A stretch of DNA of 64,000 nucleotides from an uncultured Pirellulales bacterium. Lineage in GTDB: Bacteria > Planctomycetota > Phycisphaerae > Sedimentisphaerales > SM23-30. The notes under the pieces were generated by a model. It saw only the letters and a program-made list of their open reading frames with translations. It was not told where the DNA came from and did not search any database. The DNA is taken from contig CAZOMV010000007.1 of assembly GCA_964580995.1 (NCBI GenBank), positions 11,096-75,095 of the forward strand, given 5' to 3'. Shown here piece by piece: positions 9,518 through 49,600 of the stretch (its first letter is position 1; the number at the start of each line of letters is the position of its first letter). The translations under genes were made by a program, and so were the position numbers.

Positions 9518-9558
9518 TTGCTAAAAACTCCATAAAAAATCATTCAAACTATTTATAT

Positions 9559-12906: not shown

Positions 12907-12951
12907 TTTATTACTCCAGATTGATAAAAATCAGTCCAATTTTCGGGGCCG

Positions 12952-14391: not shown

Positions 14392-14446
14392 TTTTTGCAC
14401 TCCATATAAAATTGAAAACGTATAAAACCTGTTTTACTCAATTACT

Positions 14447-15787: not shown

Positions 15788-15816
15788 ACTTTACATCCTT
15801 TTATTTTTATTATTCC

Positions 15817-17130: not shown

Positions 17131-17157
17131 AATCGTATCCTGAAATATCCAGCTATC

Positions 17158-18519: not shown

Positions 18520-18561
18520 GGCTTGTCCCTTTTCCAAAGTCCTACCATGACTGGTGTATTG

Positions 18562-19860: not shown

Positions 19861-19988
19861 TCGGGATTACTCCAAAACCTTGGGCAAGATCATTTAACAA
19901 AGACCATGCTTTCTATAATGATTCAAAACCGGGCATGACGTTAGGTCAAAACTTGGGTGAACACAAACTGGCTGGCCCAGGTTTCGAT

Positions 19989-20981: not shown

Positions 20982-21025
20982 AATTCTTCTCCAAATCGTA
21001 AGTTACGGTTATGTAATGGTTACAT

Positions 21026-22198: not shown

Positions 22199-22532
22199 GT
22201 TTTTTTCCTTTCGCAAAAAATTCCCGGTCATTTACCTTAAATTATTATAAAATTATGTGAAATAGTGGTTTACGATTATTCCATTGCAGCCTGTCGCAGA
22301 TGCCATAACCTGATGAAACGACTAGTTTTAACTATTAGTGAATATATTTCAATAAAAATTCGCCTCCCTTTCCTCTTTTTCCCTGTTCTCTTCTATGTGA
22401 AACTTCTTCACCAGCATACATCCGTCGGTAGCTTAATTCTACTCTTTTTATTAATTTTGGTTGACAATACCCAAAAAAAACGGGTTAATCTACCAAAATT
22501 AGCCATTGGTAAATTTTATACAAAATTTTCCC

Positions 22533-23543
22533 ATGAAAAAAACATCCAAAGTACAGCCTGCGATTTTTTATGATGTGGACCGGACCTACCGTGCCGACTC
22601 GTGTGAACCGTTGCGGAAAGCCAAGGAAAGAGGGGAACTGGCCCATGCCGCCTTTGCCCGCCGGAGTTATCCGGGGTACAGGCTGCCGCCCAAAATCATG
22701 CCGGAACTCTGCGTGGCCTGTGTATGGGATGCCAAACAGGACCAGACCTGGGGGCTGCCGATGCACCGCAATGAAGGGATCGAATTAGGCTATCTGACCC
22801 GCGGGAAACTCGATTTCATCGTCGAAGAAAAGTTATATAAACTCAAGAGCGGCGCCCTGACCGTAACCCGTCCGTGGCAGCCCCACAAAGTAGGCGATCC
22901 GCTGGTCCATGCCAGCCGGATGCACTGGCTGATCCTGGATGTCGGGGTTCGCCGGCCCAATGAGGCGTGGAAATGGCCCAACTGGTTTACTTTTTCTCCC
23001 GGCGATTTGGCCCGCTTGACGGAACTGCTGCGCTATAACGAACAGCCGGTCTGGCAGGCGAACGAACGAATCGAACGTTGTTTCGAAAATATCGCCGAAT
23101 ATGTCGGCACCGGCCAGCCGGAACAGGTCCAGACGCGTTTGCAGCTCAATATCAACGAATTGTTTCTGGAAGTGTACGAGATGCTCCAGGAGCAGGACAT
23201 TCAGCTCGATTCCCATCTGGCCACCACCAAACGCAATGTCGAGATGTTTCTGGAAGCCCTGCCCAAACATATCGATTACCCCTGGACCCTGGAGTCCATG
23301 GCCAAACACTGTGACCTGGGCCGCTCCCGCTTTACCCACTACTGCCGGCAAATCACCAACATGTCCCCCACCGAATACCTGATCCATTGCCGGATCGAAG
23401 CGGCCAAAAACATCCTGAAATACCATCCCCACAAAAAAATAACGGAAATCGCCTTTTCCTGCGGATTTGAATCCAGCCAGTATTTCGCCAATGTCTTCAA
23501 ACGCTACGTCGGCTGCTCGCCCAAGCTGTTTCGCGCCGGGTAA
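22533..23543 (+). CDS. AraC-family transcriptional regulator
   Basis: Cupin-like N-terminal half plus a C-terminal AraC double HTH (…WTLESMAKHCDLGRSRFTHYCRQITNMSPTEYLIHCRIEAAKNIL…IAFSCGFESSQYFANVFKRYVGCSP). Divergent from the sugar cluster. I prefer ATG 22533; position 22506 is TTG. Confidence 0.9.
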   Translation: MKKTSKVQPAIFYDVDRTYRADSCEPLRKAKERGELAHAAFARRSYPGYRLPPKIMPELCVACVWDAKQDQTWGLPMHRNEGIELGYLTRGKLDFIVEEKLYKLKSGALTVTRPWQPHKVGDPLVHASRMHWLILDVGVRRPNEAWKWPNWFTFSPGDLARLTELLRYNEQPVWQANERIERCFENIAEYVGTGQPEQVQTRLQLNINELFLEVYEMLQEQDIQLDSHLATTKRNVEMFLEALPKHIDYPWTLESMAKHCDLGRSRFTHYCRQITNMSPTEYLIHCRIEAAKNILKYHPHKKITEIAFSCGFESSQYFANVFKRYVGCSPKLFRAG

Positions 23544-35667: not shown

Positions 35668-38505
35668 ATGACGGAACATTATATACAGATACGCGGGGCG
35701 AAAGAGCACAATCTCAAGTCGGTGGATGTGGCGATCCCGCGCGATCAACTGGTGGTGATTACGGGCCTGAGCGGCTCGGGCAAGAGTTCGCTGGCCTTCG
35801 ATACGATCTACGCGGAGGGCCAGCGGAAGTATGTGGAGTCGCTGTCGGCGTATGCCCGCCAGTTTCTGGAGCAGATGCAGAAGCCCGACATCGAAAGCAT
35901 CGAAGGGCTGCCGCCCACCATTGCCATCGATCAGCGCGGCGGCGGCCACAATCCCCGCTCGACGGTGGCGACCACGACGGAGATTTACGATTACCTGCGG
36001 CTGCTGTTTGCCCGGGTCGGCAAGCCGCACTGCTGCATTTGCGGCAAGCCGATCCAGACCCAGCACGCCGGGCAGATTACCGATGCCCTGCTGGCGGAGC
36101 CGGAAGGGACGCGGGTGCAGATCTGTGCCCCGCTGATTCGCGGCCAGAAGGGCGAGCACAGCGACGTTCTCAAACGGATACAGCGGGAGGGATTTATCCG
36201 CGCGCGGGTGGACGGCCAGTTGTACGATGTGAAGGATATCCCCGCGCTGGACCGCAAGCGGGCGCATAGCATCGAGGCGGTGGTGGACCGGCTGGTTTTG
36301 AAGCCGGCGATCCGGCCGCGGCTGGCGGATTCGGTGGAGATTGCCCTGAAGCTGGGCGAGGGGCTGCTGCTGGTGCTGAAGGAGGCTAAGGCGGGTGTCT
36401 GGGAGGAGGTCTATTACAGTGAAAATTATGTCTGTCTGGATCATCCGGAAGTATCCATGCCGGAGCTCTCGCCGCGCTGTTTCAGCTTCAACAGTCCCTA
36501 CGGGGCCTGCCGCAGTTGCGACGGGCTGGGGACGATCCTGGAATTTGACCCGGATTTGATTGTGCCGGATCCGAATGTCTCGCTGACGGAAGGGGCCATC
36601 GACGCCTGGCGCAAGGGCGGCAAACGGATGAACATCTTTTACAATCGCCTGATTCGCCGTTTCTGCCGGGAGTATGATATCAGCCCGGATACGCCGTTTA
36701 AGAATATCCCGGCGGCGGTCCGCAAAATTCTGCTCTACGGCAGCGGGGAGGGTGAGGACGGTGTGGGTTTTGAAGGGGTCATTCCGAATCTGACCCGGCG
36801 TTTTCAGAACACCGACAGCGAGTTCGTCAAGGCCCGACTGCACGGGTTTTTGTCGGAGCATCCCTGCCGGGACTGCAACGGGGCGCGGCTGCGGCCGGAA
36901 TCGCTGGCGGTGCTGATTAACGGCAAGAATATTTGGGATATTACCCAGATGAGCATCACCGAAGCCCATGCGTTTTTTGCGAATATCGAATTATCCCCGC
37001 AGGATCAGGAGATTGCCCGGCTGATTTTGAAGGAAGTGCGGCATCGGCTGGAGTTCATGCTGAATGTGGGCCTGGACTATCTGACGCTCAACCGGATCAG
37101 CGGCACGCTCTCCGGCGGCGAGGCCCAGCGGATTCGGCTGGCGACGCAGGTGGGTTCCGCGCTGGTGGGGGTGTGCTACGTGCTGGATGAACCCTCCATC
37201 GGGCTGCATCACCGCGACAATCAGCGGCTGATCCGGACCATGCGGCATTTGACGGACCTGGGCAATACGGTGGTGGTGGTCGAGCATGACGAGGATACCA
37301 TCCGCGCCGCCGATCATGTGATCGACATGGGGCCGGGGGCCGGCGTGCACGGCGGCGAAATTGTGGCCCAGGGGAAAATCGAGGATATTCTCGCCGAACC
37401 CCGCTCACTGACCGGACGCTATTTTTCCGGGGAGCGGCAGATACCACTGCCCGAGAAACGCCGGAAGGTGAATCTCAGCTACTGCCTGCAGGTGGCCGGC
37501 GCCCAGCAGAACAATCTGAAAGACATTGACGTGAAGTTTCCGCTGGGAGTGTTTGTGTGTGTGACGGGGGTGAGCGGTTCGGGCAAGAGTTCGCTGGTGA
37601 ATCAGGTGCTGCTGCCGGCGGTGCGGCGGAAACTGTATAACGGGCGGGAAAAGCAGGGCAAATTCCAGAAGCTGCTGGGGACCAGCCGCATCGACAAGGT
37701 CATCCAGATCGACCAGAGCCCCATCGGCCGCACGCCCCGCTCCAACCCGGCCACCTATACCGGGGTCTTCGATCTGATCCGCCAACTGTTCAGCAAGACC
37801 CGCGAGGCGAAGATCCGCGGCTACACGCCCGGCCGCTTCAGCTTTAACGTAAAAGGGGGACGGTGTGAATATTGCCAGGGCCAGGGAACGCGCAAAATCG
37901 AGATGCACTTTTTGCCCGATGTGTATGTGGTGTGCGATCAGTGCAAGGGAACCCGCTACAACCGCGAAACGCTGGAGATCAAATACCGCGGCAAAAACAT
38001 CGCCGATGTGCTGGACATGCACGTCGAAGAATCGCTGAGCTTCTTCGAAAATTTCCCCAAAATAAAACAGATGCTGCGGACCCTCTACGACGTGGGGCTG
38101 GGGTACATGACGCTGGGGCAGGCCTCCACCACCCTCAGCGGCGGCGAGGCCCAGCGGGTCAAACTGGCCACCGAACTGGGCAAGGCCAGCACCGGCCATA
38201 CCCTCTACGTGCTGGATGAGCCGACCACCGGCCTGCATATCGCCGACATTCACAACCTGCTCACGGTCCTGAACCAACTGGTCGAGATGGGCAATACCGT
38301 CATCGTCATCGAGCACAATCTGGACGTGATTAAAATGGCCGATTATATCATCGACCTGGGACCCGAAGGCGGCGAGGGCGGCGGGCAGATCGTCGCCGCC
38401 GGCAGCCCGGAAGAAATCAGCCGGATGGCGCAAAGCTTTACGGGACAGTTTTTAATAAGCAAACTCCGGCCTGAAGACCGGGAAAAAACGAAAAAAAATA
38501 AATGA
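35668..38505 (+). CDS. uvrA: Excinuclease ABC subunit A
   Basis: 945 aa beginning IQIRGAKEHNLKSVDVAIPRDQLVVITGLSGSGKSSLAFDTIYAEGQRKYVESLSAYARQFL. It has two ABC modules (LSGGEAQR twice), zinc-finger Cys clusters, and YVLDEPTTGLH. Confidence 0.98.
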   Translation: MTEHYIQIRGAKEHNLKSVDVAIPRDQLVVITGLSGSGKSSLAFDTIYAEGQRKYVESLSAYARQFLEQMQKPDIESIEGLPPTIAIDQRGGGHNPRSTVATTTEIYDYLRLLFARVGKPHCCICGKPIQTQHAGQITDALLAEPEGTRVQICAPLIRGQKGEHSDVLKRIQREGFIRARVDGQLYDVKDIPALDRKRAHSIEAVVDRLVLKPAIRPRLADSVEIALKLGEGLLLVLKEAKAGVWEEVYYSENYVCLDHPEVSMPELSPRCFSFNSPYGACRSCDGLGTILEFDPDLIVPDPNVSLTEGAIDAWRKGGKRMNIFYNRLIRRFCREYDISPDTPFKNIPAAVRKILLYGSGEGEDGVGFEGVIPNLTRRFQNTDSEFVKARLHGFLSEHPCRDCNGARLRPESLAVLINGKNIWDITQMSITEAHAFFANIELSPQDQEIARLILKEVRHRLEFMLNVGLDYLTLNRISGTLSGGEAQRIRLATQVGSALVGVCYVLDEPSIGLHHRDNQRLIRTMRHLTDLGNTVVVVEHDEDTIRAADHVIDMGPGAGVHGGEIVAQGKIEDILAEPRSLTGRYFSGERQIPLPEKRRKVNLSYCLQVAGAQQNNLKDIDVKFPLGVFVCVTGVSGSGKSSLVNQVLLPAVRRKLYNGREKQGKFQKLLGTSRIDKVIQIDQSPIGRTPRSNPATYTGVFDLIRQLFSKTREAKIRGYTPGRFSFNVKGGRCEYCQGQGTRKIEMHFLPDVYVVCDQCKGTRYNRETLEIKYRGKNIADVLDMHVEESLSFFENFPKIKQMLRTLYDVGLGYMTLGQASTTLSGGEAQRVKLATELGKASTGHTLYVLDEPTTGLHIADIHNLLTVLNQLVEMGNTVIVIEHNLDVIKMADYIIDLGPEGGEGGGQIVAAGSPEEISRMAQSFTGQFLISKLRPEDREKTKKNK

Positions 38506-38587
38506 TCGCCAAATTTATTTGTGCGATTGCGTTTTCTTCCTTACTGGTAAATCGGTGAATCAAAGGCAAGAGGCTCTTTTCTTACTC

Positions 38588-39379
38588 CTATTTTAGCGCC
38601 TCCTTCATCCTGCCGATAAACCGCGCCAGCTCCCCCCGCCCGTGATCCGCCGCCGCCAGATTCTCCTCGATAATCTTCACCACCGCCGAGCCGACAATCA
38701 CCCCGTCCGCCCCCGCCGCCGCCAGCTCCCGGCCATGCTCCGGCTTGCTCACCCCGAACCCCACGCACACCGGCACCGCCGTCATCCCCTTCAGCGACCG
38801 GATCAGCGGCACCACCGCGCTGCCCAGCTCGCTCCGCGCCCCCGTCACTCCCATCGTCGAAACCGTATAAATAAACCCGCTGCACAGCTCCGCGATCCGC
38901 TTCTTCCGCCCCTGGCTGGTATTGGGTGTCACCATATACACCGAGTCCAAGCCATTCGCCTGCCGCAACCCCTCCACCTCCTCCGCGTCATCAATGCACA
39001 AATCCGCCACCAGCACGCTGTTCACCCCCGCCTGCGCCGCCGCCCGGTAAAACCGCTCCCGCCCGTACTTGCAGATCAGGTTATAATACATCAGCAGCCC
39101 CACCGGAATATCCCGGTACGCCTTCACCCGCCCGATCAGCTCGAACGCCTTATCGCAATTCATCCCCGCCTCCAGCGCCCGGATATCCGCCTTCTGAATC
39201 GTCGGCCCGTCCGCGATCGGATCGCTGAACGGGATCCCCAGCTCCAGCACATCCGCCCCCGCGTCTATCGCCGCCTTCATCAGCTCCAGCGAAACCTCCG
39301 CCGTCGGGTCCCCCAGCACAAAAAACGGAATCAGCGCCGCTCCCTGCTTCGCCGCAAACACCTCGCGATAACTCTTCAT
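38588..39379 (-). CDS. trpA: Tryptophan synthase alpha chain
   Basis: Sequence [11 protein letters not shown]...[22 protein letters not shown]...VGFGVS. Overlaps the trpB stop (39376-39379). Confidence 0.95.
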
Positions 39380-40569
39380 CGGGCACCTCCTTCAATCGAC
39401 TCCGGCCGGTACTTGATAAACGCATCCACATCCTTGTCCCCGCGCCCGCTCAGGTTAATCACAATCACATCATCCTTCTTAAACTTCCCCGCCTGACTCA
39501 CCACCCATGCCACCGCGTGCGTACTCTCGAACGCCGGGATAATCCCCTCCTTCCGCGTCAAAAACAAAAACACCTCCAGCACCTCCTCATCCGTCGCCCC
39601 CACATACTCCGCCCGCCCGCTATCCTTCAGCATACTATGCTCCGGCCCCACCCCCGGATAATCCAGCCCCGCGCTCACCGAATGCGACTCGATCACCTGC
39701 CCATTCTCGTCCTGCAAAAGATACGACCGCGCCCCGTGCAGCACCCCCACACTGCCCTTCTGCAGCGTCGCCGCGTGCTTGCCCGTCTCCAGCCCATACC
39801 CCGCCGCCTCCACCCCCACCAGCCGCACCCCCTGATCCTCAATAAACCCCGCAAACATCCCAATCGCATTGCTCCCCCCGCCCACGCACGCCGTCACCAC
39901 GCTCGGCAGCCGCCCCAGCTTCTCCAGACACTGCCGCCGCGTCTCATCCCCGATCACCCGCTGAAAATGCCGCACGATCATCGGATACGGATGCGGACCC
40001 GCCGCCGTCCCGAACAGATAAAACGTATCATCCACATGCGCTGTCCAATACCGCAGCGCATCATTAATCGCGTCCTTCAGCGTCCCGCTGGCCCCCGTTA
40101 CCGGCACCACCTCCGCCCCCAGCAGCTTCATCTTCTGCACATTCGGCCGCTGCCGCTCGATATCCGTCACCCCCATGAAAATCTTCACCTCCATCCCCAT
40201 CTTGGCCCCGATCGTCGCCGTCGCCAGCCCGTGCTGCCCCGCCCCCGTCCCGGCGATCAGCTTCTGCTTGCCCATATACTTCGCCAGCAGCCCCTGCCCC
40301 CGCGTATTGTTCCGCTTATGCCCACCCCCGTGCATCAAAACCTCCCGCTTCAAATACCCCTCCGCCCCCACCCGCTCGCTCAGCGCCCCGCTGCGATACA
40401 GCGGCGTCGGCCGGCCCGCATAGTCCGTCAGCAGCTCCCCCAGCTCCCGGCAAAATCCCGCATCCCCGCGATACCGCTCAAACGCCGCCTCCATCTCTTC
40501 CAACGCCGGCATCAGCACCTCCGGCACATAATAACCCCCATACTCACCATATCTTCCTTTACTCTTCAT
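39376..40569 (-). CDS. trpB: Tryptophan synthase beta chain
   Basis: Sequence [13 protein letters not shown]...GRPTPLY...HGGGHKRNN (PLP lysine context)...AGTGAGQHG...GGGSNAIG...[27 protein letters not shown] lies upstream. Confidence 0.95.
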
Positions 40570-40596
40570 AATTTTTCACCTTTCCTGCCTTCACGC

Positions 40597-40636
40597 AAAA
40601 AAAAACCGCCGCCTAACTCTCCATCAGGCCGCGGTT
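40597..40636 (-). terminator. Intrinsic terminator inside the trpB leader (attenuator)
   Basis: Minus-strand RNA reads AACCGCGGCC-UGAUGGAGAGUUA-GGCGGCGGUU. Nine of ten stem pairs form. It runs into a U-tract (9 T in total, plus-strand A-run 40597-40605) that ends 27 nt before the trpB ATG. Confidence 0.7.
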
Positions 40637-40663
40637 ATCTATCTTCTCAATACAAAATGGCTC

Positions 40664-40729
40664 CTATTCCCCGGACCTTTCTGGCCGCTGACCTCGCCAC
40701 CACCACTTCGTATTTCTCACTATTTTCAT
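40664..40729 (-). CDS. trp leader peptide (21 aa, MKIVRNTKWWWRGQRPERSGE) with three consecutive Trp codons
   Basis: My own translation of the minus strand: ATG 40729, TGG TGG TGG at 40697-40705, TAG at 40664-40666. It lies between the promoter and the terminator hairpin. Too short to appear in the ORF track. Confidence 0.65.
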   Translation of the reverse strand: MKIVRNTKWWWRGQRPERSGE

Positions 40730-40765
40730 CTCACCGAATACCTTAAAATACCATTATTTACACCC

Positions 40766-40794
40766 ATTTAACCATATCCCCTCCCCTTTGTCAA
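40766..40794 (-). promoter_or_regulatory. sigma70-type promoter of the trp leader/trpBA (TTGACA-17-TTAAAT)
   Basis: On the minus strand, TTGACA (40789-40794) is followed by a 17-nt spacer and TTAAAT (40766-40771). This sits about 35 nt upstream of the leader ATG. Confidence 0.5.
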
Positions 40795-40933
40795 ATAAAT
40801 TTCATCATTATGCTAATACATTCTGTTTCGTTAAAGCGTTAACTCCAAAATACTTAAATCAAGATAATATCTGCTATTCACCGATTTTTTAGATAACAAC
40901 CAAAGATAATAAATTCAGAATTATATAGGATCT

Positions 40934-41590
40934 CTATTCTTGCCAGGGGAAAGGTTTAATAGTTTCTTGCTTTAAATTTGAGTACTCATCAAACTCTTCC
41001 TTAGTTAATGTATACCATTCATCATAAGGATAACGTCTAAAAAACTGAGCCATTGTTTCTCTAAAATGTTCCGTAGCCATATCATTAAGGCGGCACACAC
41101 GATGTTTTTTCAACGACTCCAAATCAACACGTTTGATACGCAAGATAATACGAAAATCAACTGCTCTCCTATCATTAAAAGAAAATTGTGAATCGGCAGG
41201 CAAATAGAACAATCGCAAGTTGTCATGAGAATGTTTTGTAATTAATGACTGCCACTTTTTGGGTGTACTAGGTGGATCTATACCTAATACATCCAAATAG
41301 TTATCTATTTGACAAAGACAAATATATTCACCTCTCATATTGTCACAATTTTGTGTGATGACAATCGCATCAACCGATTTCATTGGTAAAACTGCTGTAA
41401 CTGCGGTGGAATCCCCGTTCTCGACAAGTAAATCTCGCCACGTTGTTTTACGCAGCAGATCATTTTCATCAATAATAGCCATTGATGAAAGCGAAAAATC
41501 TACACGAGGTACCCCTCGAAAGATATGCCCTTGCCTAATTGGGATTTCAATGTCGATCTTTTCGTAAATCATATTACCCCTAATTATCAT
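40934..41590 (-). CDS. Hypothetical protein (218 aa), third gene of the AT-rich cassette
   Basis: AT-rich ORF that overlaps the upstream gene by 11 nt. The alternative start ATG 41572 has AGGGG 5 nt upstream. Notable motifs are PIRQGHIFRGVP and AIVITQNCDN. No family recognised. Confidence 0.65.
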   Translation of the reverse strand: MIIRGNMIYEKIDIEIPIRQGHIFRGVPRVDFSLSSMAIIDENDLLRKTTWRDLLVENGDSTAVTAVLPMKSVDAIVITQNCDNMRGEYICLCQIDNYLDVLGIDPPSTPKKWQSLITKHSHDNLRLFYLPADSQFSFNDRRAVDFRIILRIKRVDLESLKKHRVCRLNDMATEHFRETMAQFFRRYPYDEWYTLTKEEFDEYSNLKQETIKPFPWQE

Positions 41591-41999
41591 TTTCCCAGAG
41601 GCTTATTAGATATTTGGTTTCCGCATTACGTTCTTCTCTCAATCGTTTTTCAGTTTCAGTCAAAATTCGCAGGGCAAGTGCTCGGGCCTGAGCTAGGCTA
41701 ATAGGTATTCCACTTTGTTTTCGTATTGACCAAACTAAGGATGAAGCCCCGGATCGTCTAAGTTCACTGCGAGGATCAATATAACCAAGAGGAATTGTTG
41801 AAACGGTAATAGCTAAAACCCACTTTCCGATATTCCCACACAAACGAGAGAGTGTAGATTGCGATAAAGCAGTATAATCAACCTTAGGAGATATATCAGA
41901 ATGCATCTCGATTATCGTCTTCTTATCTATATCATTTGTTGTTGCTGTATACGACGTTGAGAACTCATATCTGATTTTGCTATATGTTTGATTATCCAT
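41580..41999 (-). CDS. Hypothetical small protein (139 aa), second gene of the AT-rich cassette
   Basis: ATG 41999 overlaps the upstream stop by 8 nt (ATGGATAA). There is one moderately hydrophobic stretch, GKWVLAITVSTIPLGYI. The C-terminal helix is Arg/Glu-rich. No family recognised. Confidence 0.6.
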   Translation of the reverse strand: MDNQTYSKIRYEFSTSYTATTNDIDKKTIIEMHSDISPKVDYTALSQSTLSRLCGNIGKWVLAITVSTIPLGYIDPRSELRRSGASSLVWSIRKQSGIPISLAQARALALRILTETEKRLREERNAETKYLISLWENDN

Positions 42000-42795
42000 T
42001 TTTTTCCCTAAATGATTCTAAAAGTTCGCCTTTACATAATGTAAAAAACCATTTTTCTGCAATTTCGTGAGCAGATGATATCCATCCATCAAAATCTTTC
42101 TCTTTATTTGGCGTATCATTTTCTTTTGATGATATAGTTGTTTCAAAAATAATTGCTGGTTTGTCCTCTTGGTATCCATTGGCGAAATTTATAATTCCCA
42201 CACCCTTAGGATTTGACAAAGGAATCGTTAAGTTAAGCATTAAACCCGAGGGAACGTTATCCTTTTCAAAATCACCAAAAAGGTCATAATCTATAGACAC
42301 TTTTGTATGCAAATATTTATCCAGAAATGTTATTGGATCAGTCTTTTCTCTATCATACAGTACCGCATTAATGTATCTAAGCTTAACCTCTACTGGCTTG
42401 AAGAGATGAATGTCAGATGGATACGATTCATATATTGCGTGTATCGCTATTTGAATATGTTTTTTAAAAGTGTCCCATTTATAATCTTGAGTTTCATTCA
42501 CTGTAAGAATACCTGGTCCAAGTTGTGATAGTGGCCATCGATCAAAATCTCTACGAAATTGATGTCTTACAACATTTGCGGTCAGTTCTTCTGGAACACG
42601 TGCTGAAGGGAGATCTATTATTTTAGGGTATTTTTCGCGAACATGGTCATAGTAACGCCCTAATGCAATTCGAAATCCAGGATCATGTGGAGGGAGATTA
42701 GGAGATTGTTCCAGTTCCCAATGGAGTTCAAATATGGCTTCAACCAAAGGCTTATTATTAAGTTCACAAGGGGTAGGAATATTATCGCTTAGCAT
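41992..42795 (-). CDS. TIGR04255-like uncharacterised protein (267 aa), first gene of the AT-rich cassette
   Basis: The N-terminus ...ELNNKPLVEAIFELHWE... and the ~270-aa length match my recollection of the TIGR04255 family; this is not verified. GGAG lies 10 nt before ATG 42795. Confidence 0.65.
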   Translation of the reverse strand: MLSDNIPTPCELNNKPLVEAIFELHWELEQSPNLPPHDPGFRIALGRYYDHVREKYPKIIDLPSARVPEELTANVVRHQFRRDFDRWPLSQLGPGILTVNETQDYKWDTFKKHIQIAIHAIYESYPSDIHLFKPVEVKLRYINAVLYDREKTDPITFLDKYLHTKVSIDYDLFGDFEKDNVPSGLMLNLTIPLSNPKGVGIINFANGYQEDKPAIIFETTISSKENDTPNKEKDFDGWISSAHEIAEKWFFTLCKGELLESFREKNG

Positions 42796-43153
42796 ATTCG
42801 AAACTCCAGATTCAATCTATTTCTAGCTGATAATCACTATCATGATTAATAATCGGTCAGACCAGAATATTAAAAACCCAAATTATTATTTATCTTATCA
42901 AACAAACAACTGAATCACCTAATTATTTACACAAAACCTTCGGATATTTTCAGAAACTCAGAAACCATGGAGACAAACCTATAAATTTTAAGTTTAACCG
43001 GATTGTAACCATTTTTCAAACATAATTTTACAGAAAATTTTATCTTTAATTGATAAAGTTCATGCAAATCCCTTATAATAGATATAAATGGAAATTTTCT
43101 TGGTCAATATGATCCCTTCATATAACACCATCTCGTCATTGAAAGCGTCAACC

Positions 43154-43196
43154 ACGGGGGAAACCGGTGTTCCATGCGCCCGAGCCGAACCTGCCT
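43154..43196. repeat. Partial copy (core only) of the ~175-nt intergenic repeat
   Basis: The sequence cacgggggaaaccggtgttccatgcgcccgagccgaacct matches the cores at 45880-45920 and 46455-46495. Confidence 0.7.
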
Positions 43197-43232
43197 GCAA
43201 ATCACAGATTCCTAACAACCAAAAGAGAGCAG

Positions 43233-44132
43233 TTAAGACTGCGAATCAGGCAGAATGGACTCTACGCCTCCGGAAGGCACTTCCGCTTTGGCGGTCCAGA
43301 GGATCGCATTCAGCATCATCCGGCGCAGATCGTCCAACTGCCAATTGCTGTGAAAATGCCCGCCGGTAAAGGCAAAGCCGCGCCCCCCATCCGCACGCTG
43401 CACCGCCCAGGCCACCGTTTGCATATCCGGCTCACCCGGAATTGGCGTGGCAAGAATCGCAGTCACGCGAGGATCATCCGGCAGGAACCGGATATTATAG
43501 TAATATTCCTCTTCGAGTTCGAAGGGCGCCAGCCCCCGCGCGATGGGATGATCCGGTGACGGCAACTGAGTCATGGTTCGGGCAAATTGAATCTTGGAGT
43601 ACCAATTTTTGGGGCCGGTACCATTTTCGTAGTCAAAATAGCCGCCCACCCAGTCCAAAAATTGAGGACCGGCGGTCTGGCTGGGAACAATGATGGAATA
43701 ATGGATCACGACCAGTCCGCAGCCGCGCCGCATCTGTTTTGCGATGCACTGCATCCGGTCATCGACCAGAAACGGATGCCTGGTTAGTTCCCCGTCACTG
43801 CCGTCACTGAACAGGACTATCGTATCAGCATCATTGAGGGTGGCGGCGTCCTCCGGCCAGCCATTGGTATATAGCTCTGTTTTGATGTTACCGGCCTCGG
43901 GCATCCTCTCCAGGCAGGACTGAAAAAGACGCAGGCCTTTTTCATATTCGTGGTCTCCGGGGCCGTGACTTTTTTCTCCCGCCAGAAAGACGACCTTTAC
44001 GGGTTGGTTCATGAGACCGGATTTTGAGCAGCCACAACCGCAAACCACGATCACCGCCCCCCAAAACAGCAACCGTGCGAGATGTCGAATGGAAGTCATC
44101 TGCTGAGGATCCTTTCTGACTACAATTCCCAT
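43233..44132 (-). CDS. ThuA-domain lipoprotein (trehalose-utilisation protein A-like)
   Basis: Lipobox AVIVVCGCGCS. ThuA-like blocks: VVFLAGEKSHGPGDHEY, DADTIVLFSDG, GLVVIHYS, FAFTGGHFHSNW. The start is ATG 44132 (13-nt overlap with the upstream gene) or ATG 44099. Confidence 0.8.
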   Translation of the reverse strand: MGIVVRKDPQQMTSIRHLARLLFWGAVIVVCGCGCSKSGLMNQPVKVVFLAGEKSHGPGDHEYEKGLRLFQSCLERMPEAGNIKTELYTNGWPEDAATLNDADTIVLFSDGSDGELTRHPFLVDDRMQCIAKQMRRGCGLVVIHYSIIVPSQTAGPQFLDWVGGYFDYENGTGPKNWYSKIQFARTMTQLPSPDHPIARGLAPFELEEEYYYNIRFLPDDPRVTAILATPIPGEPDMQTVAWAVQRADGGRGFAFTGGHFHSNWQLDDLRRMMLNAILWTAKAEVPSGGVESILPDSQS

Positions 44133-45556
44133 CCCTGGCGATACTCTGTGTGAAGATACTGATTCGCTTCGGGAACGTTGGTAACCTTCATATTTTTGAC
44201 ATCATAGTGCAACTCAATATTTCTGCCGGTACGGATCGCCACATTGCCCATCTGGCAGATTTCCACATAAGGCCCCGCATAGGCGAAATCATCGCCGGTA
44301 GGAGTCCCATGCTTGCAGGCCTCAATCCACTCCTGGATATGGCCGATGGAACGGGGCAACGTGGGGACCGGGCGTTTATATTCCTGCATTCTGGCTTCCG
44401 GGATCAGGCGCGGGCTGGTACTCCAGCCGCCCACCAGCAATTTTCCCTTGTCCCCAACAAAGAGCACCCCATTCTCTCCCAGGTTGCGGCCCGGCTCCAG
44501 TTCTTCCGACCGCGGCGGCAGCAGGCCGCCATCGTACCAGTGTACTTTGACCGGCGGCATATCTGCCCGCGCGGGAAAGGCATAGTGAATCATGGTCGCA
44601 TGGGGGTACGTTTCGGGATACATTTTACTGTAGCTTGCGGAAACCGTGAAGGACTCACATTGGCCGAGTTTTAAAGACCAATAGACGCAATCCATGTTGT
44701 GAACCATCATGTCGCCGGGAGAGCCGGAGCCAAAATCAAACCAGGGCCGCCAGGCACAGCCCGGCAGGTAGATGGGGTGGAAGGGCCGAGAGGGAGCCGG
44801 TCCCAGCCACAAATCCCAGTCAATGTCATCCGGCACCGGCGGGGTATCCTCCGGGCGAACAGTGGCTTTATACCAGCTATTTTCAAAGAGTAACGGCCGG
44901 TCGGTCCAGACATGCGCCTCCCGCACCGGACCGATCGCTCCATCCCAGATCCATTCATTAATCAAATGGGCATCCTCGCTCGAGTGCCCCTCGGTTCCCA
45001 TTTGCGTGGCCACCTTCGCTACGCGGGCCGCCTCGGTGATCTTCCGCGCCTCGTACACGGTATGGGTCAGCGGTTTTTCGCAGTACACATGTTTGCCCAT
45101 CTTCAGGGCCATCATGGTAATCACCGCGTGGGTATGGTCCGGGGTGGCTATCACCACGGCATCGATATTCTTGTCTTCCTTTTCGAGCATCTTGCGGAAA
45201 TCTTTGTATTTTTTTGCCTGGGGATACTGGGCAAAGGCCAGTGCGGGACTTTCCGAGCCATAATACGTTTCCCCGCGGGCCACCGCATAGTTGGCGGTGG
45301 AGTCGCCGTGTACCACATCGCATAAAGCCACAATATTACCCATGTTTCCCAGCCCCTTGCCCAGCAGTTCACTGCCCCGGCCGCCGATCCCGATGATAGC
45401 GAGATTGGGTTTTTCACTGGGGGGTACCTGGCCGTCACCCCCCAGCACATGCCGGGGAATTATAGTAAACAACGATATCCCCGCCGCACCGCTGCGAATG
45501 AATTGACGCCGGGAAATCTGATGATCCGCGTCCCGTTTGGTTTCACTTGATTCCAT
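44120..45556 (-). CDS. TAT-exported Gfo/Idh/MocA oxidoreductase (ThuB-like partner)
   Basis: TAT signal SRRQFIRSGAAGISLF, Rossmann motif AIIGIGGRG, and block ATPDHTHA...YCEKPL. I prefer ATG 45556 (GGAG 10 nt upstream); position 45571 is TTG. Confidence 0.88.
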   Translation of the reverse strand: MESSETKRDADHQISRRQFIRSGAAGISLFTIIPRHVLGGDGQVPPSEKPNLAIIGIGGRGSELLGKGLGNMGNIVALCDVVHGDSTANYAVARGETYYGSESPALAFAQYPQAKKYKDFRKMLEKEDKNIDAVVIATPDHTHAVITMMALKMGKHVYCEKPLTHTVYEARKITEAARVAKVATQMGTEGHSSEDAHLINEWIWDGAIGPVREAHVWTDRPLLFENSWYKATVRPEDTPPVPDDIDWDLWLGPAPSRPFHPIYLPGCAWRPWFDFGSGSPGDMMVHNMDCVYWSLKLGQCESFTVSASYSKMYPETYPHATMIHYAFPARADMPPVKVHWYDGGLLPPRSEELEPGRNLGENGVLFVGDKGKLLVGGWSTSPRLIPEARMQEYKRPVPTLPRSIGHIQEWIEACKHGTPTGDDFAYAGPYVEICQMGNVAIRTGRNIELHYDVKNMKVTNVPEANQYLHTEYRQGWEL

Positions 45557-45813
45557 AATTACTATCTCCAATAAAGTAAATCAAGCCGATTATCTATATG
45601 TGTATTTCTTCAAATCGCTTAGCAAACCAATCTCTCATGGGCACCAGCCCTGCCGGCTGCCCACTATGCCGATCCTGTTTCGCTGGAACACCTATTTTCC
45701 TCTTTGTGGCTCGCAATGTAAAGACCAAAATAGACAATGGCATAGGCATAATTTGTCCCTCCAGGTTTCCTGCGCAAAGCCCCGTTTTCCCTATATCTCG
45801 CCATCCCTTCGCC

Positions 45814-45987
45814 CTTGCCCAATAACGCAAAAACCGGCGGGATCGCTCCTGCCAGGCAATTCCCGCCTCTTCTCTTTACGGGGGGAAACCGGTGTTCCAT
45901 GCGCCCGAGCCGACCTTCCCATAAACCGTAGAATCCCCCAGCCACCACGAGGCGGTGGGCCTTTATTGACAATCTGAACCATGCACC
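45814..45987. repeat. ~175-nt intergenic repeat, copy A
   Basis: Aligns by eye at roughly 85-90% identity with 46388-46564. Shared blocks: gcccaataacgca, ggcgg.atcgctcctgccaggcaattcccgcc, ggggggaaaccggtgttccatgcgcccga, ccaccacgaggcggtgggcc, gaaccatg.acc. Confidence 0.8.
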
Positions 45988-46162
45988 CCCCATACGTGTA
46001 TCAATAAACATACATACTTTTGCTTGGATTCGGATAACCCAAAAAGGTGTTTTTAACACTGGCATTCCTTTAGAAAACACGATATAATTTATAAATCAGA
46101 TTTTCAAATAGTAAAGTTTTAAATACCTATCGGCGGATAACAGATATTCGACAGGATATAAA

Positions 46163-46399
46163 ATGGACACAAAAAAACTGATTACCATCGCGGAATTTAA
46201 TGAGCCGGTGGTGGCCCATATGGCCCTGGCCAAACTGGAGGCGAACGACATCCCCTGTTATCTGGCCAACGAAAATTTTGCAGCTACTTATCCGCTCTAC
46301 GCAGGTTCGTTTAGCGGAGTCCTATTGCAGGTGGAGCAGGCCGATGTGGAGCGGGCACTGGCGATATTAAACGAAAAAACCGAAGACCCTGCCCAATAA
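46163..46399 (+). CDS. DUF2007-like small protein (putative signal-transducing protein fold)
   Basis: 78 aa: ...ITIAEFNEPVVAHMALAKLEANDIPCYLANE...LLQVEQADVERALAIL. The stop codon lies inside repeat copy B. Confidence 0.65.
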   Translation: MDTKKLITIAEFNEPVVAHMALAKLEANDIPCYLANENFAATYPLYAGSFSGVLLQVEQADVERALAILNEKTEDPAQ

Positions 46400-46564
46400 C
46401 GCAGAAACCGGCGGAATCGCTCCTGCCAGGCAATTCCCGCCTCTTTTCTTCACGGGGGGAAACCGGTGTTCCATGCGCCCGAACCGAACCTTCCTATAAT
46501 CCGTAGAATCCCCCCCTCCACCACGAGGCGGTGGGCCTATTTTAGTCCATCGGAACCATGAACC
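46388..46564. repeat. ~175-nt intergenic repeat, copy B
   Basis: See copy A; same orientation. It sits between the convergent stops of the DUF2007-like gene and the GH78 gene. Confidence 0.8.
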
Positions 46565-46613
46565 GCCCGCCAGGGCCTCCCTGGACATGATTCAGAACCT
46601 TATATTCCTCTTT

Positions 46614-49600
46614 TCATTTTCCGGAATCGCGCACGCGGAAGCTGTATCGCCCCGACGCCACTTCAAACACGGCCATCTCACCATCCATGCGAGCAAATTT
46701 CACCCCCTCCGCCTCGCCAGCCGGCCGGCCGCCTTCCGTAACCATCTCCGCGCTCTCCGCCGGTACATACACCGTCGCCGTGGTATTGGCGGGAACCGTG
46801 ACATCCAACTGGAATTGCCCGTCCGCCATCTTCCACTCACTGCCAATCACTCCGTGGATCGAATCATAACGCGCCTTAACCCATTCCAGCCCCGCGCCAG
46901 GTCGCGGCCGAATCACAAAATGCTTATACCCCGGCTGCTCCTCATCCGGATTGATCCCCGCCAGCTCCCGCCAGACCCATTCGCCCACGGAACCAAACGC
47001 CCAGTGGTTGAAGCAGTTCATGCCGGGATCCTGGAATCCGCGGCCTTTCACATAGCCGTCCCACCTTTCCCAAATCGTGGTCGCGCCCATCTCGACCATG
47101 TATCCCCAGGACGGCACGGTCCGCAGGTTGATCAGCCGCCCCGCCTCATCGTGCCGGCCGTTACGGCTCAACTCCAGCATCATGCGGTGCGTCGTCTGAA
47201 TCCCCGTCGAGGGATGATCCATAAACTTCCGGATACCTTCCACCAGGTGTTCCGTCGCTTTCGGCCGCAAGGCTTCTTCCAGCAGATTGAAGTGTAATGC
47301 CAGGGCATAGCCCGATTGGGTGTCACCCTGGATTCGCCCGTCCGGCAACACATACGCCTGGTTAAACGCCGCCTTGATATCGTCGAACAGCTTGCCGTAC
47401 TCCGCGGCCTCCTCCTTTCGCTCCAGCACGCCGGCCATCTTCGCCACAATCTCGGTCGAATGGGCAAAAAAGGCCGTCGCGAAAATCTCGTTCGGAATGG
47501 CGCTGATGCCGCGGGGATAGCCTTCCAGCACCAGCGTGTCGCCGTTGAGCCAGTCGTTGTAGTCGTTCCCGCGATTCTTCTGCCAGAGTAAGTTCGGGTT
47601 GTTGTTGCGAATAAACTCCACCCAGCGCCGCGCCGACTCGAAATGCTGTTCAACCATCCGCCGGTCGGCATAATTCAGATACATCCGCCAGGGCACAATC
47701 GTGCCCGCATCCCCCCAGGCCGGCACACCCGAGAAGCTCTCATTCGGGTTAGCCACATGCGGAGCAACATCGGGATAGCGGCCGTCATCCGCCTGCGACT
47801 CGCGAATATCGGTCACCCATTTGGTGAAAAAACCGGCCATGTCGCGCTGGAAGAAAGCCGTTTGCGAGAATGCCTGGATGTCGCCCAGCCAGCCCTCGCG
47901 CTCGGTACGTTGGGGGCAATCGGTGGGCACGCTGTGCATGTTGCCCCGCTGCACCCACTCCACACAGTGCATAATCTGGTTGATGAGTTCATTGGAACAG
48001 GAAAACGAGCCGGCCTCCGGCGCCGCGGAATGGAACACCCGGCCGAGGATGGCATCAACGCCCGGTCGGCCAGGCAAACCCGTCACTTCCACGTAGCGGA
48101 AACCATGATAGGTAAAGTGCGGCTCTCTTTCCGCCTCCCCCCCGCCCCAGGTATATTCGTTGACCTGGTCAGCCCCGCGCAGATTGTCGGTGTAAATCGT
48201 GCCGTCGTCATTGAGCATCTCGGCATGACGCACGGTAATTTTGGTGCCCGCCGGCGCATCCGCCTTGAGCCGGCACCACCCCACCATATTCTGCCCCATA
48301 TCGAAAACATAGACACCCGGCTTCGGCTCAGTCATCTTCACGGGCCGCAGCTCCTTCACCACGCGAATCGGCTCGTTACTCTGTGCCACCAGAATCGCCT
48401 TCTCAGCCTCCTCCGGATACGGCAATACCTCAGCAGGCCGCCACCCGGCATCGGCAAAACCCGGCTGGTCCCAGCCGTCTATCTCCTTCGTAGCATCGTA
48501 CGTTTCGCCGAAGTAAATCCCGGCCCGGCGGATCGGCCCATCGGTCGTCGCCTGCCACGACGGATCGGTCACGACCGTCTGCTTCGAACCGTCCGCCAAC
48601 TCAATATCCAGCCGCATCAGCAGACAAAACCGCGGATCCTTCATCGCCGGCTTGGCCATCAGCGGCCCCGTCCACCACCCGCCGCCCAACTGCGCCCCCA
48701 CGGCATTCTTGCCGCTGCCCAGCAAATCAGTAACATCGTAGCTCTGGTACTGAATCCGCCGGCTGTACCGGGTCCACTCCGGCGCCAGTATCCGATCACC
48801 GACTTTCTGGCCATTGATCCGCAGCTCATACAACCCCAAACCGGTCACCGACACCACAGCCCGCTGAATCGGTTGGGCCGCGTCAAATTCCTTACGCAGC
48901 ATGGTCGCCGGCCGCTGACTGCCATCGTCCGCGCCGCCGCCTTCGGCCAGCACCCGGTCATCAACGAGCTTGCCCTTCGCCCAGCCGCCCGACTCAATGG
49001 CATCCAACGCAGTCACCACCGCCCCCTTGGTTACATTCTCCTCACCCGCCAGCACCTGCATCTCCGCCAACGCAAATCCATAGTTCTCCCCGTCGCGATG
49101 GCCCAGCCGATTCACGCTCAGACGCACATACCGCGCCTCCATCGCTTCAAAACGGTAAACCGGCGCCGAAAGGCCCGGATTCGGTACATCCGCGTTAGTC
49201 TGGTCCACAACGGTCTTCGCATCCGAGAAGTCAGCCTTTTGCCCGGCCTCAATCTTATACCGCACGGGAAACAGGAACCCGGGCGTGTCCGGTGCATAAT
49301 CATACGGACGCGCCGGGTAAAGCCCCACACCGTCGATCCTGCGTTCCGCGCCCAGATCAACCGCTACCCATTTGACCGCATCCGCTGACGTCGCCAGCTC
49401 GCTGTGATACCCGTTGTGCGGCGTTAGCGGGGCTTCAGCCGGCGCCGCAATCCACTCAGCCTGCCAATCCGTCGGCTTCAACAACCCCATCGACCAGAAG
49501 GCCGGTTCGCTCGATTCGGATATATTCCCATCCTTGTCCCACACCTGCACCTTCCAGAAACACTCCATCCGGCTTTCCAGCGGCCTGCCCTGATAAACCA

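What the first reader, a model, noticed from the sequence alone, without database searches (positions are those of the whole stretch)
40597..40794. Ribosome-mediated trp attenuator: WWW leader peptide plus intrinsic terminator in front of a stand-alone trpBA operon
**Seen on the minus strand, by my own translation.**
- A promoter TTGACA-17-TTAAAT.
- A 21-codon ORF, ATG AAA ATA GTG AGA AAT ACG AAG TGG TGG TGG CGA ... TAG, giving MKIVRNTKWWWRGQRPERSGE.
- 27 nt further on, a GC-rich hairpin AACCGCGGCC/GGCGGCGGUU that runs into a U-tract ending 27 nt before the trpB start.

**From knowledge.** This is the architecture of the classical E. coli trpL attenuator, which has tandem Trp codons and a terminator.

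**Inference.** trpBA is controlled by tRNA-Trp-dependent ribosome stalling. Only trpB and trpA are present here, so the operon is split. I am not aware of leader-peptide attenuation being described for planctomycete-like genomes. The element is invisible to ORF callers. I could not convincingly pair an antiterminator by eye; I found only a weak UCAG..GGCC pairing between codons 13-16 and the 5' arm of the terminator.
Basis: partly seen in the sequence, partly recalled or inferred. Interest (0 to 1): 0.55.

Follow-up and report, generated by a model that had tools for sequence, protein, structure and literature searches.

The report
Tryptophan-sensing leader peptide attenuator before trpBA
In front of the tryptophan synthase genes of this planctomycete (Sedimentisphaerales) sits a short upstream reading frame with three tryptophan codons and a switchable terminator. 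It is a classic way of sensing tryptophan supply, seen here in a phylum where I found no earlier description, and it has not been tested experimentally.

Summary
- promoter TTGACA-17-TTAAAT
- a 21-codon ORF, MKIVRNTKWWWRGQRPERSGE
- a 14-bp terminator hairpin with a run of nine U
- trpB 27 nt further on

TrpB places the organism in Sedimentisphaerales (Phycisphaerae, Planctomycetota). The same module lies upstream of trpB in nine other contigs. Together with the window they represent five diverged sequence lineages. The module consists of a TTGACN-17/18-TNNAAT promoter, a purine-rich ribosome-binding site, an ATG mini-ORF with in-frame WW or WWW, a terminator and a U-run.

A conserved AGGNCC box at the end of the mini-ORF (40684-40669) pairs with the 5' arm of the terminator (40634-40621). 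The pairing is conserved, with compensatory changes. A hairpin just after the Trp codons sequesters that box. An E. coli trpL control run through the same folding procedure behaves identically.

No Rfam family matches. I found no description of such an attenuator in Planctomycetes. About 46 related contigs lack the leader.

Verdict: a well-supported but experimentally untested new family of a classical mechanism. Interest is moderate.

The parts
40766..40794 (-). Promoter: -35 TTGACA (40794-40789), 17-nt spacer, -10 TTAAAT (40771-40766)
   Evidence: Read directly. A TTGACN-17/18-TNNAAT promoter sits at the same relative place in all 8 leader-bearing contigs examined. Homology with L081 and L169 starts a few bases upstream of the -35 box.
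40664..40729 (-). Leader mini-ORF (trpL-like): 21 codons plus TAG, MKIVRNTKWWWRGQRPERSGE. The Trp codons are at 40705-40697.
   Evidence: In-frame WW or WWW mini-ORFs sit at the equivalent position in L081, L169 and L095 (MKIVRNAKWWWRGQRPERSGE), L001 (MKNAANIWYSWWWRSRQYVGPGQ), L087 (MLKENSIIFQSGWWRSRCRMGPGD), L093 (MTFNNLNGYWWCNVKA) and L166/L167 (MTRCKLNGWWWPSR).
40659..40701 (-). Anti-antiterminator hairpin P1. The 5' strand (40701-40696 and 40691-40686) covers the last Trp codons and the 6 nt that follow shortly after. The 3' strand is 40673-40668 and 40664-40659. It encloses or sequesters box 2.
   Evidence: RNAalifold consensus. Pair counts: 88.7% paired against 21-58% when slid, with 2 pairs changed on both sides. 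The window MFE puts the Trp codons in a -24 kcal/mol stem.
40669..40684 (-). Box 2: the 5' strand of the antiterminator, CCAGAAAGGUCCGGGG (codons 16-20 of the mini-ORF), with a conserved AGGNCC core
   Evidence: Constrained folds. Alignment A2 columns 29-39 pair with columns 86-98: 89.4% paired against 22-45% when slid, with 3 pairs changed on both sides.
40621..40634 (-). Box 3: the 3' strand of the antiterminator, CCGCGGCCUGAUGG. It is also the 5' arm of the terminator plus the start of its loop, so the two structures exclude each other.
40597..40636 (-). Intrinsic terminator: 14-bp stem 40636-40604 (one G.G mismatch, loop GGAGA) and a run of nine U at 40605-40597
   Evidence: -21.3 kcal/mol. 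Conserved with 3 compensatory pairs and 92.3% paired.
39376..40569 (-). trpB (tryptophan synthase beta, 397 aa), the first regulated gene. Its SD, AAAGGTGA, is at 40583-40576.
   Evidence: Pfam PALP. Relatives at 97-66% identity are annotated as tryptophan synthase beta in Sedimentisphaerales and Phycisphaerae.
38588..39379 (-). trpA (tryptophan synthase alpha, 263 aa), which overlaps the trpB stop
   Evidence: Pfam Trp_syntA, E = 2.4e-85.

Best explanation
This is a classical ribosome-mediated (leader-peptide) transcription attenuator controlling a two-gene trpBA operon in a Sedimentisphaerales bacterium.

**Proposed mechanism**
1. Transcription starts at the TTGACA-17-TTAAAT promoter.
2. A ribosome translates the 21-codon leader while RNA polymerase proceeds.
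3. When charged tRNA-Trp is plentiful, the ribosome passes the three Trp codons. It then covers box 2 (40684-40669, the last codons before the stop). The 5' arm of the terminator can therefore only pair with its 3' arm, and the transcript ends at the U-run at 40605-40597, a product of about 160 nt.
4. When charged tRNA-Trp is scarce, the ribosome stalls at 40705-40697. Its footprint melts the 5' strand of hairpin P1 (40701-40686) but leaves box 2 free. Box 2 pairs with the terminator's 5' arm (40634-40621) as soon as that arm is made. The terminator cannot form, and polymerase reads into trpB and trpA.

**Shown here**
- All the sequence elements.
- Their conservation and in-frame Trp codons in five lineages.
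- The three alternative helices, with compensatory changes.

**Inferred, not shown**
- Translation of the mini-ORF.
- Coupling of the ribosome to the polymerase.
- The tryptophan response itself.
For: 1. The elements are present exactly as described.
2. The module recurs in relatives: window, L081, L169 and L095 (96-97% TrpB identity to the window); L001 and L087 (84%); L093 and L094 (81%); L166/L167 (TrpB 90% identical to that of L093). The flanking leader sequence is largely diverged, yet UGGUGG stays invariant and in frame with an ATG preceded by a purine-rich SD. The promoter, terminator and U-run are kept.
3. Covariance model R1 finds strong hits only at these places among 77 sources and 438 kb.
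4. Antiterminator: 89.4% of cells paired against 22-45% in slid controls, 3 pairs with changes on both sides, 0 of 500 shuffles reaching the covariation score. These figures are comparable to the terminator's own (92.3%, 3 pairs).
5. Anti-antiterminator P1: 88.7% paired, 2 compensatory pairs.
6. In the five leaders folded (four lineages), with a ribosome masked at the last Trp codon and the transcript cut at the terminator loop, box 2 pairs with the 5' arm (-15.8 to -24.0 kcal/mol).
7. The E. coli trpL control gives its known 2:3 antiterminator at -15.6 kcal/mol by the same procedure. Like the window, it keeps its terminator in full-length equilibrium folds.
8. Geometry is conserved. The Trp codons and box 2 align almost without gaps. 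The stop codon always lies within or just before box 2, so a terminating ribosome covers it. The distance from stop codon to U-run is 57-74 nt.
9. Promoter, leader and trpBA move as one unit. The sequence upstream of the -35 box differs between window, L081 and L169/L095.
Against: - There are no experimental data of any kind.
- Only five independent lineages are available. The helices were derived from the same sequences they are counted on, and the GGCC cores are palindromic, so some pairing comes for free.
- For the window sequence alone the antiterminator is not significantly better than shuffles (z = -1.1, p = 0.14).
- The window's SD (GGTGAG) abuts the ATG.
- About 46 related contigs with TrpB at least 76% identical to the window's lack the leader. 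Many of them have trpB 40-70 nt after a serC-like gene. The element is therefore dispensable.
- In L095 about 1.8 kb separates the leader from trpB.
- Transcription-translation coupling has not been shown for this group.
Confidence: 0.85

Rival explanations
1. The conserved UGGUGG and the alternative hairpins are read by a trans-acting factor, not by a translating ribosome. Candidates are a Trp-activated RNA-binding protein (TRAP-like), an uncharged tRNA (T-box-like) or a small ligand (riboswitch). On this reading the mini-ORF is incidental.
For: UGGUGG(C/U)G is invariant at the nucleotide level. That would also fit an RNA motif. The window's SD spacing is poor. Most of the peptide sequence outside the W run is not conserved.
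Against: - No T-box or any other Rfam family matches, even at E <= 10. The best hit is PyrR at 22.8 bits against a gathering score of 54.
- There is no chain of (G/U)AG triplets; the longest is 2, where TRAP needs about 11.
- UGG is in frame with an ATG and SD in all five lineages, even though ORF starts and stops differ.
- The stop codon always sits where a terminating ribosome would cover box 2.
- The leader is only about 140-180 nt, shorter than a T-box.
Confidence: 0.06
2. It is a constitutive or leaky terminator, either insulating trpBA from upstream transcription or ending an upstream unit, with a chance short ORF. There is no tryptophan sensing.
For: Equilibrium folds keep the terminator even with a ribosome masked on the Trp codons. 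Most relatives manage without the element. Covariance-model hits at 20-30 bits are ordinary terminators, for example after rplU in L002 and L083.
Against: - A promoter lies between the upstream gene and the terminator in every lineage. A terminator placed about 160 nt after its own promoter and 27 nt before the gene only makes sense as a regulated one.
- The in-frame W run is conserved across otherwise diverged leaders.
- The antiterminator and P1 pairings are conserved.
- The E. coli control also keeps its terminator in equilibrium folds, so that observation does not discriminate.
Confidence: 0.05
3. In addition to acting in cis, the terminated leader RNA of about 160 nt or its peptide acts in trans, as rnTrpL and peTrpL do in Sinorhizobium. 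This would be an extra function and does not exclude attenuation.
For: There is precedent in alpha-proteobacteria (PMC6614838 and PMC7298713, listed). In L095 the leader is kept intact although it is detached from trpB by about 1.8 kb.
Against: I looked for no target and have no evidence for one. The L095 insertion may simply be recent. The peptides are not conserved outside the W run and the stretch fixed by RNA structure.
Confidence: 0.1

Closest known systems
E. coli / enterobacterial trpL attenuator (Rfam RF00513 Trp_leader)
   Same: - A short leader ORF with tandem Trp codons followed by Arg (E. coli [14 protein letters not shown]; here KWWWRG, WWWRSR, GWWRSR).
- Four-segment logic: 1:2 anti-antiterminator, 2:3 antiterminator, 3:4 terminator plus U-run.
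- The stop codon is placed so that a terminating ribosome blocks segment 2.
- Similar energies (antiterminator -15.6 kcal/mol in E. coli against -15.8 to -24.0 here).
   Different: - No detectable sequence or structure homology (no RF00513 hit at E <= 10).
- It precedes a stand-alone trpBA rather than trpE of a full trpEDCBA operon.
- It has three Trp codons, and the leader ORF is longer after the W run (10 codons in three lineages).
- Box 2 lies inside the ORF rather than after it.
- The phylum is different (Planctomycetota).
Actinobacterial trp leader-peptide attenuators (e.g. Streptomyces trpE leader MFAHSTRNWWWTAHPAAH; Corynebacterium)
   Same: A WWW run in a leader peptide of about 18 aa, and classical attenuation predicted by comparative genomics and partly tested (PMC1262725; PMC4833913 background; supplement).
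   Different: A different phylum and a different target gene (trpE or the whole trp operon). I did not compare them for sequence similarity.
Putative TrpL in the Chlamydia trachomatis trpR-trpBA intergenic region (PVC superphylum)
   Same: It lies upstream of trpBA in a relative within the PVC superphylum.
   Different: The chlamydial candidate is 59 aa with non-consecutive Trp codons, is predicted to be a poor attenuator and is unvalidated. There, trpBA is controlled by TrpR and YtgR (PMC7755916). The element here has consecutive Trp codons, a strong terminator and a conserved antiterminator.
Bacillus TRAP-mediated attenuation and T-box (tRNA-Trp) leaders of trp genes
   Same: The output logic is the same: a choice between antiterminator and terminator in the 5' leader of trp genes.
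   Different: The sensor differs. There are no (G/U)AG repeat array, no T-box match, and a translated W-codon ORF takes their place.

Membership tests
Ribosome-mediated (leader-peptide) transcription attenuators, Trp class (a mechanistic class) | A short ORF with a start codon and ribosome-binding site, close to the promoter and upstream of the first biosynthetic gene | tested here: met
   ATG 40729, 36 nt after the -10 box. AAGG and GGTGAG lie upstream. Equivalent ATG mini-ORFs with purine-rich SDs are present in all 8 contigs. The SD spacing in the window itself is suboptimal.
Ribosome-mediated (leader-peptide) transcription attenuators, Trp class (a mechanistic class) | Tandem codons for the regulating amino acid within the leader ORF | tested here: met
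   WWW at codons 9-11 (40705-40697). WW or WWW is in frame in all five lineages.
Ribosome-mediated (leader-peptide) transcription attenuators, Trp class (a mechanistic class) | An intrinsic terminator (GC-rich hairpin plus U-run) between the leader ORF and the structural gene | tested here: met
   Stem 40636-40604 plus nine U, -21.3 kcal/mol. Conserved with compensatory pairs.
Ribosome-mediated (leader-peptide) transcription attenuators, Trp class (a mechanistic class) | An antiterminator helix that uses the 5' arm of the terminator and is mutually exclusive with it | tested here: met
   40684-40669 pairs with 40634-40621. It appears in constrained folds of the five leaders folded. 89.4% paired, 3 compensatory pairs. 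The window alone is not significant against shuffles (p = 0.14).
Ribosome-mediated (leader-peptide) transcription attenuators, Trp class (a mechanistic class) | An anti-antiterminator (1:2) whose 5' strand overlaps or adjoins the regulatory codons, so that a stalled ribosome melts it | tested here: met
   P1 is 40701-40686 with 40673-40659. 88.7% paired, 2 compensatory pairs.
Ribosome-mediated (leader-peptide) transcription attenuators, Trp class (a mechanistic class) | The stop codon is placed so that a terminating ribosome occludes the antiterminator's 5' strand | tested here: met
   Box 2 is codons 16-20 in the window. In L093 and L166 the stop codon lies within or directly before box 2. 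This assumes a footprint of about 12-15 nt 3' of the A site, which is established knowledge.
Ribosome-mediated (leader-peptide) transcription attenuators, Trp class (a mechanistic class) | Read-through rises when charged tRNA-Trp is limiting, and depends on translation of the leader | not testable with these tools
   Needs Term-seq, reporter or in vitro coupled assays.
Rfam RF00513 Trp_leader (proteobacterial sequence family) | A match to the covariance model at or near its gathering score | tested here: not met
   No RF00513 hit, even at E <= 10 on 40300-41100, and no hit at gathering score in the whole window.
T-box leader (RF00230) | Stem I with a specifier codon plus the conserved T-box antiterminator sequence, seen as a covariance-model match | tested here: not met
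   No hit at E <= 10.
TRAP-regulated trp leader | An array of about 9-11 (G/U)AG triplets separated by 2-3 nt and overlapping the antiterminator | tested here: not met
   The longest chain is 2 triplets in the window lineage and 0-1 in the others. I did not test whether the genome has an mtrB gene.

The most novel reading that the evidence does not exclude
This is a previously undescribed RNA family, with no Rfam model. It would be the first ribosome-dependent amino-acid attenuator in Planctomycetota. It is confined to part of the Sedimentisphaerales, is carried with trpBA as a portable promoter-leader cassette, and is repeatedly lost. Its operation would require tight transcription-translation coupling in a member of a phylum whose cell organisation has been debated. 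The terminated RNA of about 160 nt could additionally act in trans.
Probability: 0.45. Interest if true: 0.5.

Novelty: new member of a known kind. Interest (0 to 1): 0.4.

Why it matters
- Leader-peptide attenuation only works if a ribosome follows RNA polymerase closely. A functional attenuator in a planctomycete would be simple genetic evidence for transcription-translation coupling in that phylum. From my own knowledge, spatial separation of the two processes has been proposed for Gemmata.
- It would extend the known phylogenetic range of the mechanism. The literature I searched lists Proteobacteria, Actinobacteria and a few others, but no planctomycete.
- It provides a compact, portable tryptophan-responsive switch of about 200 nt.
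- It gives a seed alignment (A2) and covariance model (R1) for annotating genomes in which gene callers miss the mini-ORF.
- Its patchy distribution, about 10 of roughly 56 related contigs, makes it a useful case of gain and loss of a regulatory element next to a conserved operon.

Tried and rejected
- **Rfam.** The whole window at gathering thresholds gave nothing. The region at E <= 10 gave only chance-level hits: PyrR at 22.8 bits against 54, and some snoRNAs. T-box, Trp_leader and PyrR are rejected.
- **TRAP-type (G/U)AG arrays.** Absent.
- **Equilibrium folding of the full leader with a ribosome masked on the Trp or stop codons.** The terminator persists in every case. I first read this as evidence against an antiterminator. 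The E. coli trpL control behaves the same way, so the test does not discriminate. Truncated, co-transcriptional folds are the relevant ones.
- **Exact-protein look-up of the window's TrpB.** Not on record.
- **Other TrpB homologues fetched in the hope of more leaders** (P0004, P0008, P0009, P0015, P0050, P0019, P0010, P0007). All leaderless.
- **Covariance-model hits of 20-30 bits** (L002, L083, L014, L112). These are ordinary terminators; the L002 and L083 hits lie after rplU.
- **The three low-GC ORFs upstream** (40934-42795). No Pfam or PADLOC match.
- **The ORFs in the L095 insertion.** No Pfam match, so my guess of an IS605-type element is unsupported.
- **The + strand ORF 39517-40746 that overlaps the leader and trpB.** I judged it an antisense artefact of the G-rich coding strand.

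Full report
**1. Observation**

On the minus strand the sequence reads as follows:
- TTGACA (40794-40789), 17 nt, TTAAAT (40771-40766).
- 36 nt further on, ATG (40729) opens a 21-codon frame, MKIVRNTKWWWRGQRPERSGE. Its Trp codons are at 40705-40697 and its TAG at 40666-40664.
- 27 nt after the stop comes a hairpin at 40636-40604: AACCGCGGCCUGAU / GUUAGGCGGCGGUU, 14 bp, one G.G mismatch, loop GGAGA, -21.3 kcal/mol.
- The hairpin runs into nine U (40605-40597).
- 27 nt after the U-run comes the trpB ATG (40569).

The genes are trpB (39376-40569, PALP) and trpA (38588-39379, Trp_syntA). uvrA (35668-38505, + strand) converges on trpA. Pfam scans of the other large ORFs found no further trp gene in the 64 kb. 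trpBA is therefore a stand-alone two-gene unit here.

The leader folds better than all 200 shuffles (z = -3.8).

**2. Organism**

The closest TrpB proteins (97% down to about 66% identity) come from Sedimentisphaerales and Phycisphaerae MAGs. The guess of a planctomycete-like genome is right.

**3. Known RNA families**

No Rfam family reaches its gathering score anywhere in the window. At E <= 10 the region gives only chance-level matches, the best being PyrR at 22.8 bits against a gathering score of 54. There is no T-box and no Trp_leader. There is no TRAP-like (G/U)AG array.

**4. Relatives**

I fetched trpB loci from genome and metagenome collections, and by exact-protein look-up. A W-rich mini-ORF followed by a terminator lies upstream of trpB in these contigs:

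| Contigs | TrpB identity | Leader peptide |
|---|---|---|
| L081, L169, L095 | 96-97% to the window | MKIVRNAKWWWRGQRPERSGE |
| L001 | 84% to the window | MKNAANIWYSWWWRSRQYVGPGQ |
| L087 | 84% to the window | MLKENSIIFQSGWWRSRCRMGPGD |
| L093 (L094 is a truncated copy) | 81% to the window | MTFNNLNGYWWCNVKA |
| L166/L167 | 90% to L093 | MTRCKLNGWWWPSR |

Each contig also has a TTGACN-17/18-TNNAAT promoter, a purine-rich stretch before the ATG and a run of 7-9 U.

Outside a few blocks the leaders have diverged (61-71% mean column identity). UGGUGG is invariant and always in frame with the ATG.

A covariance model built from seven of these sequences gives strong hits only at these places, among 77 sources and 438 kb. 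About 46 other related contigs with TrpB at least 76% identical to the window's lack the element. In many of them trpB follows a serC-like aminotransferase gene by 40-70 nt. In L087 and L166 the leader sits between that gene and trpB.

**5. The alternative structures**

In equilibrium folds of the full leader, with a ribosome masked on the Trp codons, the terminator persists. The E. coli trpL leader behaves in exactly the same way, so that test says nothing either way.

The relevant test cuts the transcript at the terminator loop, which represents the moment of decision. With a ribosome masked at the last Trp codon, the five leaders folded (four lineages) all pair a conserved AGGNCC box with the 5' arm of the terminator. 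The energies are -15.8 to -24.0 kcal/mol. E. coli's known 2:3 helix gives -15.6 kcal/mol by the same procedure. In the window the pairing is 40684-40669 with 40634-40621.

| Helix | A2 columns | Cells paired | Slid controls | Pairs changed on both sides |
|---|---|---|---|---|
| Antiterminator | 29-39 with 86-98 | 89.4% | 22-45% | 3 |
| Terminator | 80-93 with 102-115 | 92.3% | 23-53% | 3 |
| P1 hairpin | 12-17/49-54 and 22-27/40-45 | 88.7% | 21-58% | 2 |

For the antiterminator, the changes on both sides are at columns 29/98, 30/95 and 31/94. For example, 31/94 is C-G in L001, L093 and L166 and U-A in L087. None of 500 shuffles reached its covariation score.

RNAalifold independently finds the P1 hairpin. 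In the window it is 40701-40686 with 40673-40659. Its 5' strand begins in the last Trp codons and ends 11 nt after them. That is inside the footprint of a ribosome stalled there. Its loop and 3' strand hold box 2.

**6. Mechanism (inferred)**

- With ample Trp-tRNA, the ribosome runs to the stop codon and covers box 2. Box 2 is codons 16-20 in the window. In L093 and L166 the stop codon lies within or directly before it. The terminator then forms and a transcript of about 160 nt is released.
- With scarce Trp-tRNA, the ribosome stalls at WWW and opens P1. Box 2 is free and captures the 5' arm of the terminator, and polymerase reads into trpBA.
- The Trp codons and box 2 align almost without gaps across lineages, although the position of the stop codon varies. 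This is what the model requires.

**7. Caveats**

- Only five independent lineages are available.
- The helices were derived from the sequences they are counted on.
- The GGCC cores are palindromic, so some pairing comes for free.
- The window's own antiterminator is not better than shuffles (p = 0.14).
- The window's SD abuts the ATG.
- The element is absent from most relatives.
- Nothing has been measured.

**8. Comparison with known systems**

Functionally this is the E. coli trpL design. It shares even the Arg codon after the Trp run: E. coli GWWRTS, and here WWWRG, WWWRSR and WWRSR. It is not a detectable member of RF00513. It precedes trpBA rather than trpE.

The list of predicted TrpL-bearing species drawn from Merino et al. 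2008, reproduced in the supplement of PMC7755916, contains no planctomycete. The only PVC candidate is the chlamydial TrpL, which that paper describes as atypical and unvalidated. Full-text searches found no description of a trp leader-peptide attenuator in Planctomycetes. The searched library is incomplete, so this is absence of evidence only.

**9. Verdict**

It is a new member of a well-known kind. Interest is moderate, for three reasons: a first for the phylum, the implication for transcription-translation coupling, and a ready seed for annotation.

Noticed in passing
L095:520-716 and L095:722-2492: In a 96%-identical relative from an activated-sludge contig, the intact promoter, WWW leader and terminator are separated from trpB by about 1.77 kb. 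The extra sequence starts right after 'TTTTTTTTTGCGTG'. It carries ORFs at 805-1203 (+) and 1207-2340 (-) or 1309-2400 (+), with no Pfam match. It is an insertion of unknown nature that uncouples the attenuator from its operon.
   Followed up: partly
window 40808-46632: Relative to L081, the window holds about 5.8 kb extra directly upstream of the -35 box. In L081 the alpha-L-rhamnosidase gene lies 46 nt from the leader promoter. The extra segment contains a low-GC island (GC 0.32-0.39 against about 0.6 in the flanks) with three same-strand ORFs (40934-41590, 41580-41999, 41992-42795) that have no Pfam or PADLOC match. It also contains ThuA (43233-44132) and a GFO_IDH_MocA oxidoreductase (44120-45571).
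   Followed up: partly
window 43156-43212, 45813-45967, 46387-46543; also L169:1-50: A dispersed intergenic repeat of about 60-155 nt (75-92% identical copies) begins GGGGGAAACCGGTGTTCCATGCGCCCGA. Its longer copies end in a CCACCACGAGGCGGTGG hairpin. Three copies lie in the 5.8-kb segment, and one lies on a relative's contig. Its function is unknown; it could be a MITE-like or regulatory repeat.
   Followed up: partly
window 38500-40500: The trpBA coding strand has an unusually strong G-over-C skew of about 0.37-0.46 at 61-65% GC. This skew generates long spurious antisense ORFs, for example 39517-40746 (+) and 38642-39496 (+).
   Followed up: no
window 8144-22231: A long minus-strand run of paralogous GFO_IDH_MocA oxidoreductases (at least seven), ThuA, 3-keto-disaccharide hydrolase and xylose-isomerase-like TIM-barrel genes, next to an AraC-type regulator at 22506-23543. 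It looks like a large sugar-oxidation or 3-keto-glycoside utilisation cluster.
   Followed up: no
L002, L083, L084, L162, L166, L168, L170, L173, L175 (upstream of trpB): In many Sedimentisphaerales contigs the gene order is DUF1015, then a serC-like aminotransferase (Aminotran_5), then trpB and trpA (then rplU in some). The leader is present between the aminotransferase gene and trpB in L166/L167 and L087, and absent in the others. This suggests a conserved synteny in which the leader was gained or lost.
   Followed up: partly
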